NCBI RefSeq assembly: GCF_048403405.1
Contig: NZ_CP183129.1
Reading direction: 5' to 3' (one strand)
DNA from: Escherichia coli
Lineage (GTDB): Bacteria > Pseudomonadota > Gammaproteobacteria > Enterobacterales > Enterobacteriaceae
Length of the DNA stretch: 64,000 nucleotides
A program made the position numbers. Of the stretch, positions 21,001 to 27,000 are shown piece by piece (within the stretch, counting starts at the first letter, position 1; each line of letters opens with the position of its first letter).

Positions 21001-24000
21001 GGGATGCCGACAAACTCGCGCAGCAAAAAACGCTTGCCTGGGAACACGCTTCAAGGCTTGTCGATCTGCTCAATTCCGTCGTGAATAATCCAGAGGGAGA
21101 ATAACAATGCAGTATACCCGGCTCGGTAAAAGTAACTTACTTGTTTCCCGCATCTGCATGGGATGCATGGGGTTTGGCGATCCGTCGACGGGTCAGCATA
21201 GCTGGACGCTGGACGAAACAGCAAGCCGCGACATCATTCGCTATGGCCTTGAAAAGGGCATCAACTTTTACGATACCGCTATAGCCTACCAGAATGGCTC
21301 CAGTGAGCGATACGTTGGCCGGGCATTACGGGAGATGGCGAAACGCGATGATATCGTCCTGGCCACCAAGTTTCTGCCGCGAACCCCCGCACAAATTGCC
21401 GGAGGGATCAGCGGAAAAGAGGCAATCGCTCAATCCCTTGACCAGAGCCTGAAGAATCTGGGGATGGACTATATCGACCTCTACATCTACCACATCTGGG
21501 ATTACAACACGCCCATTATCGACGTGCTTGAAGCGTTATATGCCGCTGTTACTGCTGGCAAAGTACGAGCTGTTGGTATTTCAAACTGCTATGCCTGGCA
21601 GCTGGCGAAGGCGAACGCCCTTGCTGAACGCGAAGGGCTGACGCCCTTTGTTTCCGTACAGAGCCACTACAATCTAATTATGCGCGAAGATGAACGGGAG
21701 CTCTTCGGCCTGTGCACTGAGGATAATATCGCAATGACCCCCTATAGCGCGCTGGCCAGCGGCCGCCTCTCTCGTAAAGAAGGCTATACACGGCGAGCCA
21801 CAGAGGATGACTATGCGCGTGGAAAATATGACAGCACGGCTGAACAGGATCGCAGCATTATTGAGCGTGTAGCCGAACTGGCCGAACGCCATCTGGTGTC
21901 AATGACGGAAATATCTCTCGCTTGGCTGCTGACAAAAGTCACATCACCTGTCGTAGGGGCTACAAAAAAAGCTCATGTCGATGGCGCGGTAAACGCAGTA
22001 AATCTTCAACTAAGTCCGGAGGAAATTCAGTTTCTGGAAGAAACCTACCAGCCGCATGTTCTGACGGGGATCATGGCGCAAAATACGCCGCAAACGAAAG
22101 ATGTTAAGCAGGTCTGGATGCGATAGCCCTTATTCACTTTTCCTCCTCTCGTCTTTGAGAGCGCCAGTAGCGGTCGGTTACGTTCTTACCAGCACCAGTT
22201 GATCGAACGTCTTAAACAGTAACGTCAGTAAAAAGATCATCGTGAAAAAGACTTTTATGCTTTTAATTTGCATGCTAATAAGCAGCCCTGTCTTTGCAAC
22301 AAAACCGGACGCGCCGAATAAGCCGGAGATGAATATCTTCGAGCTCGGCATCAGACCCGATCGGGACAACGACTTTGCAGACGTGGCCAGACAGACGATT
22401 TCCGCTTCGGTTGATCATGAAGCAGGTACACTGGCGATGTATGCCCTGCAACGCAGCGACAATTCAGGTCAGGCATTCATGTTCGAACTCTATGAAAATG
22501 AGCGTGCTTATCGCAAACATCTCAATGCCGCCCCATACAAAGCATTCGCTGCTCGTGCAGCTGACATTATTGACAGGAAGAAGAAAATTACCCTGGAGCC
22601 ACAGTTTCTGGGCGACAAACACATCATACCGAATGAACGAACTATCAATAATCTGGTGATCGTCGAAGTAAAGCCTGAATTTCAGAGCGAATTTAGAAAC
22701 ATCGTCCTTCCTGAAATGGTCGAGTCGCTCAAAGTAGAGAAAGGCGTGTTAGCCATGTATGCCGGTACAGATTCAGAGACTCCAAAACGCTGGTATTTCT
22801 ATGAGATTTACGCCAGTGAGGAGGATTATCAACTGCACCGACAAACGCTGCACTTCCTGGAATACCTCAGGCAAACGGCGCATATGAGCGCCAGGAAGGA
22901 CGCAATCCCGGTAAAACCGGTATTTCTTCGTAACAAAGGCGGAATCAAACAGGAGCCGCAACGTTGACCAGTAAGGATTAACATGAAAAGCGTACTTGCA
23001 GCAGCGGCTATGTCGCTTGTTATTTCTGATTTTGCCAATGCTGAGGAAACAAGAGGTAAAGCTATGATGAAAATAGAACCGTCAGCGATTTCGGAAGCTG
23101 ATATTCGTTCCGTCTCACCGGCTCTCGCGCGCTTTGGTCGCGAAGCTATTACTGAAGATCTGTGGACACGCGACGCCCTCTCACCGAGGGATCGTAGTGT
23201 GGTGACCGTCGCCATGCTGATTGCCCGCAACCAGCCTGCCGAGCTTAAGCACTATATTGACGTCGCTCTCGATAGCGGCGTGACGCCAGCGGAATTATCA
23301 GAAATCATTACCCATCTGGCGTTCTACTCAGGTTGGCCAAATGCAATGTCAGCCGTCAGCGTGACCAAAGCAGTATTTGAAACTCGTGGCGTCACGCCAG
23401 ATGCGCTTCCTGACACTTCTCCGGACCTGCTTCCTCTCAATCAGGAAGCAGAAAAGCAGCGTTCAGAGACAGTGGAAAAAAATGTTGGCCGAATATCTCC
23501 AGGCTTGGTTAAATTTACTGCTGACCCACTGTTCCTGGATCTCTGGCAAAGACCCGCGCTAACCCCCCGTGATAGAAGCCTGATTACGGTCAGCGCGTTA
23601 ATCGCATCTGGACAGAGCGCGCAGATTGGCTATCACCTTAACAGAGCGATGGATAATGGACTTTCTGCTGAGGAAGCTGGGGAGATCGTTACCCAAGCCG
23701 CGTTTTACGCTGGCTGGCCAAACGCATTTACCGCTGCTCCGGTTGTGGGAGAGGTGCTAAACAATCGATCATCGAGTAAAAGGTAACATTACTGAACACT
23801 AAAACCTGACGCACATCACAACATTAGAACGAACAGTTCATGAACCAATAAGCGTAACATCGAGTGATTTATGGACAGCGTTTAACACAGTTATGAACCA
23901 AAACTGAGTTCATAACTGTGAGTTTGAATCGCCATTTGATTAATATCCATTTAAAACAGTTTGTTATGCTGTTTCTGGTGCTGAAGTCAATTATGTATAT

Positions 24001-27000
24001 CCCTCAAACCCAGAATAGTTAAATGGAATTTGAGTGATGCGAAGCGATTTTCCAGTCGTCGTTATTACTTCAGGGTTCCAGAACATAAAGCCTCTCCTCT
24101 TTCATGATTGGCCTGTGCATACCGGATATAGGCTGGCTGGTATGCAGGTTTGCCGTTTGCCGCATCTTCCCTGCGTTGAAGAGTCAGGCTGGCAAACCGC
24201 GTGCAAATGAACACCCCCACTTTCCATCAACACTTCAGACAGCTTGCGGGAATGAGTCCACTCCGGTATCAGAAATGGCTACGCCTCAATGAAGCCAGGC
24301 GACTGATGCTGAATGAACATTACGATGTCACCACTGCAGCCTATGCTGTCGGTTTCGAAAGCTTATCCCATTTCAGTCGGGAATATTCGCGGATGTTTGG
24401 AGAGTCACCTAAGAGAGATATTACCAGGTTAAGAAAGTCTGTCGGTCAGCTTTAATAAACCCTGCACTTATCTGTTTAAAGCAATTCCGTGTTAGTTACA
24501 CCAGGCAAACATTAACTATGGCTAATGATTTATAGCCATATAAACCATTGGTCGCTCTTGACCTTTCCTGACACTTCCCTTGTTCGCAATAATATTCTGT
24601 TTAGTCGCTGTTTATAAATAACATGCATAATGAAATCGTAATGTTATTTAGCGACATAAAATGTCTTTGCAAATACTCTCTACAACAAGTGCTGCAATAA
24701 ACTTGTTGAGATTAGGTGTCCTTGTAATTTAAAGATATTATCGTTCTTCGTGAAGTGTAATAACCCTGGAAACTATATTCTCAGGGCAATATCCCATCAA
24801 GAATGATTCTTGTTTTATAAGCAATAACAGAATGACTTAATTGTTAACTTTCTTTATTCAGCTACTTAAATATAAATTTTGGAGAATTATGAAACTCAAA
24901 CATGTCGGTATGATTGTCGTTTCTGTGTTGGCGATGTCGTCTGCTGCGGTAAGCGCAGCCGAGGGTGATGAATCAGTAACGACCACTGTTAATGGCGGTG
25001 TTATTCATTTTAAAGGTGAAGTGGTAAATGCCGCTTGTGCGATTGATTCAGAATCAATGAACCAAACGGTTGAGCTGGGTCAGGTCCGTTCTTCTCGTCT
25101 GGCTAAAGCGGGTGACCTCAGCTCCGCCGTTGGCTTCAATATCAAGCTGAATGATTGTGATACCAATGTTTCCAGTAATGCAGCTGTTGCATTCCTGGGT
25201 ACTACTGTCACCAGTAATGACGACACATTAGCGCTGCAGAGTTCAGCGGCAGGCTCTGCCCAAAATGTCGGTATTCAAATTTTGGACCGTACGGGGGAGG
25301 TATTAATACTTGATGGTGCCACTTTTAGCGCTAAAACTGACTTGATTGATGGCACGAATATATTGCCGTTCCAGGCTCGATATATTGCTCTCGGGCAGTC
25401 AGTAGCTGGTACTGCAAACGCAGATGCGACCTTCAAAGTTCAATATCTATAATTCAATCTTAAGGTGGCTATACGTCATCTGAAATTGAAACAGGGTGTG
25501 TGTGGCATGGCTACGCACACCCTAGCAACTCAGAAATGTGAATCTCATTATTAATGAGGAGTGGTTTGTATTTGGAGCGCTATGAAAAATCACATAATAT
25601 CTAAACGATCAATAAACAACAGTAGTTAAATTTACTGTTATTTAAAAAATTTACTTTGTAGCAAGGTTTTCCTATTAAAAGAGAACCAACATTTATTTCA
25701 AACGCATTAAGTCTGGAAACCCGGCGACTCGCCAATGTATTAGCAACATTTACCGATTGTCTGATGTAACGGTTTCCCCGCTTATCCTCTTAACACATGG
25801 AGAATGCATCAGATGCAAACTACGCGTACCCTCTACTCTATTTCCTTTATGGCGACAGTGTTACTTTTATTGCTCTTTGCTTGCCATAGCACCATTGCCA
25901 ACGCAGCTGTCGCACTGGGTGCGACGCGGGTAATTTATCCGGCAAACCAGAAACAGGTTTTATTGCCTGTCACGAATAATGATCCTGCCAGTGTCTATCT
26001 CATTCAGTCATGGATAGAAAATGCAGGTGACCAAAAAGACACCCAGTTTGTCATTACCCCACCGCTTTTTTCCATGCAAGGTAAAAAAGAGAATACGCTG
26101 CGGATAATCAACGCCACTAATCATCAGTTACCAGGCGACCGTGAAAGCCTGTTCTGGGTTAATGTTAAAGCTATTCCTGCTATGGAAAAAGATCAGAAGA
26201 ATGAGAATACATTACAGCTGGCAATTATTAGCCGCATAAAAATGTTTTATCGCCCCACGAACCTGGCAATGGCACCTGAAGAAGCGCCTGCAATGCTTCG
26301 GTTTCGTCGCAGCGGCAGCAAACTCACTCTTATTAATCCAACGCCCTACTTCATTACCGTAACAAATATGAAAGCAGGAAATAGCAATCTCCCAAACACC
26401 ATGGTGCCGCCAAAAGGTGAAGTATCGGTGGATATCCCGCATGCTGCAACCGGGGATATCAGTTTTCAGACGATCAATGATTACGGTGCATTAACTCCGC
26501 GTATTAAGGCAACCATGCAATAAGCCAGTGACCTAATTAATAATAAACTCAATCGGAATTAAAAATGACAGCCTTTCATGCCGCATTTAAGGCATATCGT
26601 ATGCATCAGGTGTTAATACTGCCTCGCTTTGTACGGCTTACCTTTGCCCTTGGCTTAGCAACTGCGGTTTTTCCCGTTGACGCAGAGTATTATTTTAATC
26701 CACGGTTTTTAAGCAATGATCTTGCTGAATCTGTCGATTTATCCGCCTTTACTAAGGGACGCGAGGCACCACCTGGTACATATCGGGTCGACATTTATTT
26801 GAACGACGAATTTATGACTAGTCGGGATATTACTTTTATTGCAGATGATAATAACGCAGATCTCATCCCATGCCTGAGTACAGATCTTCTTGTCAGTCTT
26901 GGCATAAAAAAATCAGCGTTATTAGACAATAAAGAACATTTGGCAGAAAAACATGTGCCGGACAACAGCGCATGCACACCACTTCAGGATCGTTTGGCCG

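What the first reader, a model, noticed from the sequence alone, without database searches (positions are those of the whole stretch)
23830..24455. Cluster of GTTCATGAAC-type palindromes next to an AraC C-terminal remnant
A perfect palindrome GTTCATGAAC sits at 23836-23845, and a 10-bp perfect inverted repeat AGTTATGAAC / GTTCATAACT (9-nt spacer) sits at 23889-23917. The same TGAAC/GTTCA half-site recurs within 90 bp, which looks like an operator array. The adjacent AraC gene retains only its final HTH region. The palindromes could be orphaned operators, the footprint of a lost element, or sites for a regulator encoded elsewhere.
Basis: seen in the sequence. Interest (0 to 1): 0.45.

Follow-up and report, generated by a model that had tools for sequence, protein, structure and literature searches.

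The report
Mobile-island end sites beside chromosome dif
The palindromes are not operators of the broken AraC gene: they are conserved end sequences of a GInt-type mobile genomic island that inserted at the edge of the E. coli chromosome-resolution site dif and has since lost its own recombinase genes.

Summary
The sequences are real. GTTCATGAAC lies at 23836-23845. The inverted repeat is longer than reported, with 13-bp perfect arms (23886-23898 and 23908-23920) and a 9-nt spacer. The 10-bp palindrome alone is unremarkable (58 such in the window). The 13-bp repeat is unique in the window.

The window is E. coli. A perfect dif site lies at 16568-16595. In K-12-type strains dif directly abuts the DNA that precedes the AraC remnant (yneL). 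Here a 7.4-kb island (16596-24017) sits between them, flanked by a 7-bp GTTAAAT repeat.

Other E. coli, Tatumella and plasmids carry islands with the same two ends. Those begin with a four-gene module: two tyrosine recombinases, a large protein and a small protein, which is the GInt (ginABCD) layout. The window's island lacks these genes.

The palindromes lie in the roughly 250-bp right-end module. They are its most conserved part (27/30 invariant positions against 64/186 elsewhere). They keep fixed distances from the terminus (-181, -127, -109), even in a lineage whose Gin proteins are only 62-68% identical.

Most likely they are binding sites for element-encoded recombination or regulatory proteins, orphaned in this copy. 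This is a new member of a known kind; the targeting of dif seems undescribed.

The parts
16568..16595 (+). Chromosomal dif site GGTGCGCATAA-TGTATA-TTATGTTAAAT (XerC arm, centre, XerD arm). Its last 7 bp, GTTAAAT, are repeated at the other end of the island.
   Evidence: Exact 28/28 match and the only match in the window. It has the same position relative to hipA as in K-12-type strains.
16596..16663 (+). Left (gin-proximal) end of the island. It contains the core arm GTGGTGGGTTTG (16596-16607) and a degenerate copy of the motif, GTTCATG (16615-16621).
   Evidence: About 68 bp are shared with the left ends of gin-bearing islands in E. coli VTB96935v and CD45 (alignment A2). The same sequence follows dif or a Xer-like site in L018, L023, L027, L051, L056, L063 and L064.
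16664..23772 (.). Cargo, with no gin genes: truncated LysR regulator (17005-17436, minus strand), 103-aa ORF, DJ-1/PfpI-like protein (17880-18581), aldo-keto reductases (18655-19602 and 21107-22126), KefF-like NAD(P)H oxidoreductase (20532-21104), antibiotic-biosynthesis-monooxygenase-type protein (22242-22967), carboxymuconolactone-decarboxylase-family protein (22983-23786).
   Evidence: NCBIfam hits and RefSeq annotation of the matching strain. tblastn with GinA-D finds nothing in the window.
23773..24024 (+). Right (3') end module of the island, about 250 bp, which contains the palindromes.
   Evidence: It aligns across three diverged types (about 72% identity) in E. coli and in other Enterobacterales, metagenomes and plasmids.
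23836..23845 (.). Palindrome 1, GTTCATGAAC (two overlapping TTCATGA motifs), 181 bp upstream of the terminal GTTAAAT.
   Evidence: The position is conserved at -181 to -183 in 8 of 8 right ends examined (one strand only in CD45-type), including the divergent L024 (CTTCATGAAG).
23886..23920 (.). Inverted repeat CACAGTTATGAAC - 9 nt - GTTCATAACTGTG. The inner 8 bp of each arm (TTATGAAC / GTTCATAA) are the conserved core, at -127 and -109 from the terminus.
   Evidence: DNA hairpin, -16.2 kcal/mol for the 105-nt region, z = -3.3. The inner arms are nearly invariant across lineages while the outer arms and spacer vary. The positions are conserved.
23990..23998 (+). Invariant block ATTATGTAT in the right end, which resembles the centre of dif. 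Its role is unknown.
   Evidence: Invariant columns in the family alignment. MAFFT aligns it to the dif centre of K-12.
24005..24017 (+). Terminal core arm CAAACCCAGAATA. It is an inverted match to the left-end arm TRTGGTGGGTTTG, so the joined ends give a 13-6-13 site around GTTAAA.
   Evidence: Read directly from the sequences. The block is invariant in 27 distinct right ends, but the last 19 bases were the search pattern, so that invariance is partly by construction.
24018..24024 (+). GTTAAAT, a 7-bp direct repeat of the end of the dif XerD arm. It is the presumed crossover region and right boundary of the island.
   Evidence: Comparison of empty and occupied sites (alignment A1). On plasmid pOkiPb01712_2 the copy reads GTTAAAC.
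24130..24455 (+). AraC-family C-terminal remnant (yneL-like pseudogene; ORF 24201-24455).
   Evidence: It is present next to dif in strains without the island.

Best explanation
The palindromes are conserved cis-acting sites in the right-end (3') module of a GInt-type integrative genomic island.

What is shown:
- This island lineage inserts exactly at the outer edge of the XerD-binding arm of a Xer recombination site. Here that site is the chromosomal dif at 16568-16595.
- Insertion leaves dif intact on the left and a 7-bp GTTAAAT repeat on the right (24018-24024).
- Intact relatives carry, just after dif, a four-gene module: two tyrosine recombinases, a large recombinase-related protein and a small protein. 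This is the ginABCD layout.
- The window's copy has both ends but no gin genes. It is a decayed, non-autonomous derivative that carries oxidoreductase and detoxification cargo.
- The motif TTCAT(G/A)A occurs at fixed distances from the junctions: -181 (palindromic), -127 and -109 (as an inverted repeat) at the right end, and +21 and +98 at the left end of intact relatives.

What is inferred:
- These are binding sites for an element-encoded DNA-binding protein. Candidates are a Gin recombinase arm-binding domain, GinD, or the HTH proteins encoded next to ginD.
- The bound protein would organise the attL/attR or circular-junction complex for excision and integration.
- In the circular form the sites lie upstream of ginA, so they may also regulate gin expression.
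- In this window the sites are orphans. They could act only if a related intact element supplied the proteins in trans.
For: Insertion at dif:
- K-12-type and strain-3150-type genomes have dif directly followed by the DNA that follows GTTAAAT here.
- The window has a perfect dif 7.4 kb upstream, followed by the shared left end.
- In all 9 chromosomal loci with enough upstream DNA, a dif with 0-1 mismatch abuts the left end in the same orientation.
- The metagenomic GInt L024 and two plasmid copies abut Xer-like sites that have the same XerD arm.

GInt nature:
- VTB96935v, CD45, H9Ecoli and plasmid pE16EC0715-3 have proteins of 507, 555, 845 and 167 aa right after the Xer site, then variable cargo (Hachiman, restriction systems and others), then this right end.
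- GinA, GinB and GinC match their positional counterparts in a Pseudomonas module that sits just after ssb (E = 8e-13, 7e-9, 6e-11).
- This layout matches the published GInt description: ginABCD at the 5' end, variable cargo, a short 3' end with well-conserved AT-rich stretches, imperfect direct repeats and 6-nt staggered cuts (PMC5385486).
- Tatumella shows frameshifted and deleted gin remnants behind the same left end.

Conservation of the palindromes:
- 27/30 palindrome positions are invariant, against 64/186 elsewhere in the module (Fisher P = 7e-9). This used sequences found without using the palindromes.
- The positions are the same in all right ends examined. This includes L024, whose Gin proteins are 62-68% identical and whose ends otherwise do not align.
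- A TTCATGA motif lies at +21 in the left ends of L007, L063, L024 and a lineage only 33-40% identical (L041b).
- Cargo turnover leaves the right end intact. H9Ecoli and Enterobacter keep only the last 31 codons of the CMD gene in front of it.
Against: - No binding or recombination experiment exists for these sites. The published GInt work used the last 481 nt of the 3' end as a block and did not dissect it.
- Which protein binds is unknown.
- GinD shows no detectable similarity to the Pseudomonas counterpart.
- Pfam hits of GinA and GinB to Phage_integrase are weak (E = 0.06 and 0.19).
- The Pseudomonas comparator is identified as a GInt only by its architecture and its position after ssb, not by a label.
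- The 9-nt spacer (10 nt in L041) is longer than the usual 6-8 bp of tyrosine-recombinase core sites, and the sites lie 110-180 bp from the crossover. They are therefore accessory sites, not crossover sites.
- Two truncated right ends (L059 and L062) lack the palindromes.
- The window's left end has a degenerate +21 motif and lacks the +98 site, so this copy may be immobile.
- The sequences compared fall into few lineages, so the invariance statistics overstate independence.
Confidence: 0.75

Rival explanations
1. The palindromes are operators for element-encoded HTH regulators (the 110-aa and 98-aa HTH proteins next to ginD). They would control the gin operon or outward transcription, and would not be part of the recombination complex.
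For: A conserved trio of HTH, hypothetical and HTH genes follows ginD in L008, L063, L064 and L067. In the circular form the right end lies upstream of ginA. Left-end motifs at +21 and +98 fall between the junction and the ginA start at +135. Perfect and near-perfect palindromes are typical of dimeric HTH operators.
Against: Fixed distances to the crossover at both ends, kept across lineages with 33-68% protein identity, fit recombination architecture better. It is not known whether the L024 and L041b lineages encode these HTH proteins. The two roles are not mutually exclusive.
Confidence: 0.13
2. The 13-bp inverted repeat acts as a hairpin in single-stranded DNA. It could be a priming or processing signal in a strand-biased, copy-out type transposition intermediate, or an oriT-like signal for mobilisation in trans.
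For: The stable DNA hairpin folds better than all 200 shuffles (z = -3.3). Related SE elements circularise with a strand bias, and GInts often leave no empty site (PMC10214605; PMC5385486). How GInts transfer between cells is unknown.
Against: There is no significant covariation: 2 pairs change on both sides, 117/500 shuffles do as well, and outer stem pairs break in 2 of 6 lineages. The inner arms are conserved in sequence rather than only in pairing. The same motif also occurs as single, non-hairpin copies at +21 and +98 and as a zero-spacer palindrome. No relaxase, nic-like context or plasmid oriT similarity was seen.
Confidence: 0.07
3. One reading: an operator array belonging to the adjacent AraC-family gene, or to a regulator of the neighbouring chromosomal genes (fimbrial operon).
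For: The sites are near the AraC remnant, and they have a repeated half-site layout.
Against: Most E. coli have the remnant and fimbrial genes without the palindromes, with dif in their place. The module occurs with unrelated right-hand flanks in other genera and on plasmids. No intact AraC gene was seen at this position in the sampled genomes.
Confidence: 0.02
4. A transcription terminator or mRNA-stabilising hairpin for the upstream oxidoreductase-CMD operon.
For: The hairpin lies 100 nt after the CMD stop codon on the same strand.
Against: There is no T-tract, the stem is AT-rich, and the terminator scan does not call it. The same module follows oppositely oriented or unrelated genes in type B and type C islands. 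Palindrome 1 and the left-end copies are not explained.
Confidence: 0.02
5. The island is an IMEX (an element integrated by the host XerCD at dif) and the palindromes are remnants of a folded or duplicated dif-like attP.
For: The island lies exactly at dif. TTATG and CATAA, the inner bases of the Xer arms, occur in the repeat arms, and ATTATGTAT at 23990-23998 resembles the dif centre.
Against: No second dif-like site exists. The best other 28-mer in 14000-26000 matches 17/28 positions, and the right junction shares only GTTAAAT. The crossover lies outside the dif central region. Intact relatives encode their own recombinases. No phage match was found.
Confidence: 0.01

Closest known systems
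[quoted passage not shown] 2017, PMC5385486
   Same: Intact relatives share the layout of two tyrosine recombinases, a large recombinase-like protein and a small protein at one end. [quoted passage not shown] GInts are already reported in Escherichia (7.5% of replicons, PMC10214605) and as carriers of defence systems in E. coli (PMC10121019).
   Different: The window's copy has no gin genes. The target is the outer edge of the XerD arm of dif and of plasmid Xer-like sites. In the text I could read, described GInt targets were an ABC-transporter gene, ssb and a ribonucleotide-reductase gene, and no searchable paper linked GInt with dif. The TTCATRA palindrome architecture has not been described. 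GinD shows no detectable similarity to the Pseudomonas comparator.
[quoted passage not shown] 2023, PMC10214605
   Same: Four core genes at the left end, imperfect terminal inverted repeats, a 6-bp spacer or footprint, few target sites and no transfer genes.
   Different: The SE gene order is intA-tfp-intB-srap, and SE proteins form clusters distinct from the Gin proteins. Here the two catalytic-type recombinases are adjacent, as in GInts.
IMEX elements (CTX phage, TLC, the gonococcal genetic island) that integrate at dif using host XerCD
   Same: They are located exactly at dif, leave dif functional in sequence, and can stack in tandem.
   Different: IMEX elements carry a dif-like attP, recombine within the dif core and encode no recombinase of their own. 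Here the crossover lies at or beyond the end of the XerD arm, only 7 bp are repeated, and relatives encode their own recombinases.
Arm-type and accessory binding sites of tyrosine-recombinase elements (lambda att P and P' arms; Tn554 with TnpC)
   Same: Repeated short motifs lie at fixed distances tens to hundreds of bp from the crossover on both sides. They are presumably bound by element proteins to build the recombination complex. This is a functional analogy.
   Different: No binding protein has been identified and no sequence relationship exists. The palindromic and inverted-repeat arrangement differs from lambda arm sites.
E. coli integration hotspot #20 (hipA / ydeT) of Hochhauser et al. 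2023, PMC10121019
   Same: The same chromosomal interval, reported occupied in 62 of 783 genomes by defence-carrying islands.
   Different: In the text and tables I could read, that study did not note that the hotspot is dif. It also did not describe the element ends or the gin-less oxidoreductase island.

Membership tests
GInt | ginABCD operon at the 5' end of the island | tested here: not met
   tblastn with GinA-D of the E. coli relatives finds nothing in the window, and the cargo ORFs are oxidoreductases and a truncated LysR regulator. The feature is met in relatives with the same ends: L007, L008, L063 and L064. Frameshifted remnants are present in Tatumella L018. The window copy is therefore a gin-less derivative, not a complete GInt.
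GInt | [quoted passage not shown] | tested here: met
   Position-specific BLASTP matches to the four-gene module that follows ssb on P. aeruginosa pTROUS1: A-A 28% identity (E = 8e-13), B-B 25% (E = 7e-9), C-C 22% (E = 6e-11), with no D-D match. The comparator is identified as a GInt by its architecture and ssb target, not by a published label.
GInt | Short, poorly conserved 3' end that contains well-conserved AT-rich stretches | tested here: met
   The roughly 250-bp right end is about 72% identical between types, with invariant blocks: the palindromes, ATTATGTAT and the terminal 20 bp.
GInt | Flanked by short imperfect direct repeats (10-17 nt), with a 6-nt staggered crossover | tested here: met
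   TATTATGTTAAAT on the left against AGAATAGTTAAAT on the right share 7 perfect bp within a 13-nt imperfect repeat. The joined ends form 13-bp imperfect inverted arms around GTTAAA. The cuts themselves were not tested.
GInt | Site-specific insertion with variable cargo | tested here: met
   All copies examined abut the XerD arm of a Xer site. Cargo ranges from 7 kb of oxidoreductase genes to about 33 kb carrying Hachiman, restriction systems or mrk fimbriae.
GInt | Excision to a circular form and re-integration that depend on all four gin genes | not testable with these tools
   This needs PCR for the circular junction and genetic tests.
IMEX (XerCD-dependent integrative elements) | A dif-like attP, so that the integrated element is flanked by two dif-like sites, with no recombinase of its own | tested here: not met
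   There is only one dif. The best other 28-mer in 14000-26000 matches 17/28 positions, and the right junction shares 7 bp. Relatives encode recombinases.
SE (strand-biased circularizing integrative elements) | Core gene order intA-tfp-intB-srap | tested here: not met
   In relatives the order is recombinase, recombinase, large protein, small protein, which is the GInt order described in PMC10214605.
AraC-family operator array | The sites co-occur with the regulator gene and its targets across genomes | tested here: not met
   The remnant is present in about 5,100 genomes and the palindromes in about 560. The palindromes also occur with unrelated flanks and on plasmids.
Intrinsic terminator | G+C-rich stem followed by a T-run | tested here: not met
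   It is not called by the scan. The stem is AT-rich and is followed by AGTTTGAATCG.
Any Rfam RNA family | Covariance-model match | tested here: not met
   Only two chance-level snoRNA hits appear in 22500-25500, elsewhere in the region and at E > 7.

The most novel reading that the evidence does not exclude
A lineage of GInt elements in Enterobacterales uses the XerD-arm edge of Xer recombination sites as a universal landing pad. This covers chromosomal dif and plasmid multimer-resolution-type sites, and lets the elements hop between chromosomes and conjugative plasmids. Recognition may rely on the Xer site itself, or on bound XerD, since only the dif side of the target is conserved. The TTCATRA sites at fixed positions would form the element's recombination scaffold. 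The common gin-less islands, such as this one (present in roughly 9% of complete E. coli genomes), could then still be moved in trans by intact relatives.
Probability: 0.3. Interest if true: 0.65.

Novelty: new member of a known kind. Interest (0 to 1): 0.42.

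Why it matters
The result replaces a speculative 'orphan operator' reading with a concrete one: the sites mark the end of a mobile island.

It shows that the E. coli hipA-ydeT island hotspot is in fact the chromosome dimer-resolution site dif. It also shows that a family of self-encoded-recombinase islands (GInts) inserts at the very edge of the XerD arm, on chromosomes and on plasmids.

It gives a precise, testable map of cis sites for an element class whose recombination mechanism is barely studied: core arms, a 6-bp spacer, and motifs at -181, -127, -109, +21 and +98. These elements carry defence systems, metal resistance and other adaptive cargo.

It also suggests that many 'integrase-less' islands at this locus are decayed or trans-dependent GInt derivatives.

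Tried and rejected
- Rfam scan of 22500-25500 found nothing relevant.
- The promoter and terminator scan did not call the hairpin.
- The IMEX hypothesis (XerCD-mediated element with a second dif-like site) was my first idea after finding dif. I rejected it because no second dif-like site exists, only 7 bp are repeated, and relatives carry their own recombinases.
- The phage collection gave no match to the right end.
- I looked for the E. coli Gin protein accessions in the supplementary ginC-ginD list of PMC10214605 and did not find them. That file is stored truncated.
- Pfam scans of the GinA-, GinB- and GinC-like proteins gave only weak or no hits.
- The covariation test of the hairpin was inconclusive: there are too few lineages and the inner stem is invariant.
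- I looked for an intact AraC gene at this locus. The one hit annotated 'AraC family transcriptional regulator' is another fragment, further split by IS2.
- The genome-collection scan used the hairpin itself as the pattern, so those five loci cannot be used to argue that the hairpin is conserved. For that argument I used the metagenome scan with the terminal 19-mer.

Full report
**Observation**

The reported sequences are present. GTTCATGAAC is at 23836-23845. AGTTATGAAC-N9-GTTCATAACT is at 23889-23917. The repeat finder shows that the perfect arms are 13 bp: CACAGTTATGAAC at 23886-23898 and GTTCATAACTGTG at 23908-23920.

A perfect 10-bp palindrome is not unusual, since the window holds 58 of them. 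The 13-bp perfect inverted repeat with a 3-20 nt loop is the only one in 64 kb. The shared motif TTCAT[GA]A occurs four times in the 310 bp of island ends, against 0.11 expected (P about 5e-6).

The neighbouring ORF 24201-24455 is an AraC-family C-terminal fragment. Read in frame, both HTH motifs survive with an internal stop codon.

**Where the region lies**

The window is E. coli. Bases 23700-24600 are 100% identical to strain ST2747. Of 5,426 complete genomes, 5,113 match part of this stretch, but only 479 match at least 80% of it. Most genomes match only from about 24018 or 24246 onward.

I aligned the window with K-12-type and strain-3150-type genomes (alignment A1). In those strains, the place where the palindrome-bearing DNA ends here is occupied by GGTGCGCATAATGTATATTATGTTAAAT, the chromosomal dif site. 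The window has a perfect dif 7.4 kb upstream at 16568-16595, just after hipBA.

So 16596-24017 is an insertion. Its left border is the last base of the dif XerD arm, and its right border repeats the last 7 bp of that arm (GTTAAAT, 24018-24024).

Its genes are:
- a truncated LysR regulator
- a DJ-1/PfpI-like protein
- two aldo-keto reductases
- a KefF-like NAD(P)H oxidoreductase
- a monooxygenase-like protein
- a carboxymuconolactone-decarboxylase-family protein

**What kind of insertion**

A distant-mode search with the 231 bp that hold the palindromes found the region in 556 E. coli genomes, always as a single copy or two. These included about 62 genomes with a version only about 72% identical.

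Two such strains, VTB96935v and CD45, carry islands of about 33 kb at the same place. The order there is dif, then a left end sharing about 68 bp with the window's left end (alignment A2), then four genes, then variable cargo, then the diverged right end.
- The four genes encode proteins of 507, 555, 845 and 167 aa. RefSeq annotates the first two as integrases.
- The cargo includes Hachiman, restriction enzymes and an mrk fimbrial cluster.

This is the architecture of GInts as described by Bardaji et al. 2017. [quoted passage not shown] It also has imperfect direct repeats and 6-nt staggered cuts (PMC5385486). The gene order distinguishes GInts from the related SE elements (PMC10214605).

The first three E. 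coli proteins match their positional counterparts in a four-gene module that follows ssb on P. aeruginosa plasmid pTROUS1, with E = 8e-13, 7e-9 and 6e-11. The end of ssb is a published GInt target. The fourth protein shows no match. Pfam and NCBIfam hits to integrase models are weak.

The window itself has no gin sequences. Other copies show intermediate states of decay and cargo turnover:
- Tatumella saanichensis has frameshifted and internally deleted gin remnants behind the same left end.
- E. coli H9Ecoli has an intact gin operon with a right end 94.8% identical to the window's. That right end is preceded by only the last 31 codons of the decarboxylase gene.

In E. coli, ginC is present in 81 genomes and the right end in 556. 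Gin-less derivatives like this one are therefore the common form.

**The ends and the target**

Joining the right end to the left end gives CAAACCCAGAATA | GTTAAA | T(A/G)TGGTGGGTTTG. This is 13-bp imperfect inverted arms around a 6-bp spacer, the form expected for a tyrosine-recombinase core site. I read it directly.

I scanned metagenomes with the terminal 19-mer and genomes with the hairpin. These gave about 45 further copies from Enterobacter, Klebsiella, Pseudocitrobacter, Tatumella and unnamed sources. Many different sequences follow GTTAAAT.

The element always abuts a Xer site:
- In every chromosomal locus with enough upstream DNA (9 of 9), a dif with 0-1 mismatch abuts the left end.
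- On E. coli plasmid pE16EC0715-3 the left end abuts AGTGCGTATAA-CGAGGA-TTATGTTAAAT.
- On K. oxytoca plasmid pRHBSTW-00432_2 it abuts GGTTCGCATAA-CAAAGA-TTATGTTAAAT.
- In a metagenomic relative (L024) it abuts AGTGCGTATTA-TCTATC-TTATGTTAAAT.

The target is thus the outer edge of the XerD arm of Xer sites in general.

This is not the IMEX pattern. There is no second dif-like site, the crossover lies outside the dif centre, and the elements encode their own recombinases. I found no paper that links GInts with dif. The interval is hotspot #20 (hipA/ydeT) in Hochhauser et al. 2023.

**The palindromes within this frame**

They lie in the roughly 250-bp right-end module (23773-24024).

I compared eight distinct right ends that were found without using the palindromes. 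In these, 27 of 30 palindrome positions are invariant, against 64 of 186 other positions (Fisher P = 7e-9).

The positions relative to the terminal GTTAAAT are constant:
- -181/-180 for the palindrome
- -127 and -109 for the two arms of the inverted repeat

The strongest single piece of evidence is L024. Its Gin proteins are only 62-68% identical, and its right end is otherwise unalignable. It still has CTTCATGAAG at -183 and TTATGAAC-N9-GTTCATGA at -129/-111.

The same motif also occurs in left ends. It lies at +21 and +98 in the gin-bearing elements L007 and L063, at +21 and +99 in L024, and at +21 in a lineage only 33-40% identical. In the window's left end the +21 copy is degenerate (TTCATGT) and the +98 copy is missing.

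**Mechanism**

The following are shown:
- membership of the palindromes in a conserved element-end module
- their positional conservation
- their independence from the AraC remnant

The following are inferred. The motifs are binding sites for an element-encoded protein, acting as accessory (arm-type) sites that organise the attL/attR or circular-junction complex. In the circular form they lie upstream of ginA, so they could also serve regulation.

A hairpin role in single-stranded DNA cannot be excluded. The DNA fold is stable (z = -3.3). Covariation is not significant, however, and outer stem pairs break in two lineages, while the inner 8 bp are conserved in sequence.

A terminator role is unlikely. 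There is no T-run, the scan does not call it, and the module follows genes of either orientation.

**Verdict**

The AraC-operator reading is not supported.

The feature is a new, degenerate member of a known kind of mobile island. The dif-edge targeting of this lineage and the fixed TTCATRA architecture appear undescribed, and they are worth a modest follow-up.

Noticed in passing
window 16568-16595; also L007, L008, L018, L023, L027, L051, L056, L063, L064, L067, L024: This GInt lineage always abuts the last base of the XerD arm of a Xer site. That holds for chromosomal dif in several genera and for plasmid Xer-like sites with different central regions. No searchable paper links GInts to dif.
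   Followed up: yes
L041 617-6500; L038 1681-2506; L044; L053: Tandem arrays occur. Directly after the right-end GTTAAAT of one element, a second and different gin operon begins (GinA 33-93% identical), with its own TTCATGAA motif at +21. This suggests repeated insertion at dif that pushes older elements outward.
   Followed up: partly
L064 23130-23225; L009; L054; window 22983-23786: The last 31 codons of the carboxymuconolactone-decarboxylase-family gene are kept in front of the type-A right end even when the rest of the oxidoreductase cargo has been replaced by defence genes. Cargo turnover spares about 330 bp of right end.
   Followed up: partly
L008 25723-27314; L063 23208-24197; L064 9669-11270; L067 15484-17063: A conserved trio of genes lies just after ginD in several elements: a 110-aa HTH protein on the opposite strand, a roughly 186-aa hypothetical protein and a 98-aa HTH protein. 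It may be a regulatory module, and these proteins are candidate binders of the palindromes.
   Followed up: no
window 24110-24245: The DNA between dif and the AraC remnant has two sharply different haplotypes in E. coli (window and strain-3150 type against K-12 type), flanked by near-identical sequence. The window type keeps both AraC HTH motifs in one frame with an in-frame stop.
   Followed up: partly
window 23990-23998: The invariant block ATTATGTAT in the right end resembles the centre of dif (ATAATGTAT) and lies 19 bp before the terminal GTTAAAT. Whether it is a relic of dif, a mimic or a coincidence is unclear.
   Followed up: no
window 24615-24650 and 24517-24540: There is a perfect 10-bp inverted repeat, TAAATAACAT/ATGTTATTTA with a 16-nt spacer, and a short terminator-like hairpin on the minus strand. 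Both lie in the AT-rich region upstream of the fimbrial operon (major subunit gene starts near 24890).
   Followed up: no
L006 3001-3045 (plasmid pOkiPb01712_2): An isolated terminal 45 bp of the right end lies next to IS3-family elements and ends in GTTAAAC instead of GTTAAAT. This would fit a crossover within the last bases and a plasmid Xer site with a C-ending XerD arm.
   Followed up: partly
L007 13948-24984: In E. coli VTB96935v, the island's cargo includes an mrk (type 3 fimbriae) cluster with mrkJ and a PilZ protein, bracketed by IS1 and IS903B, alongside Hachiman and restriction genes.
   Followed up: no
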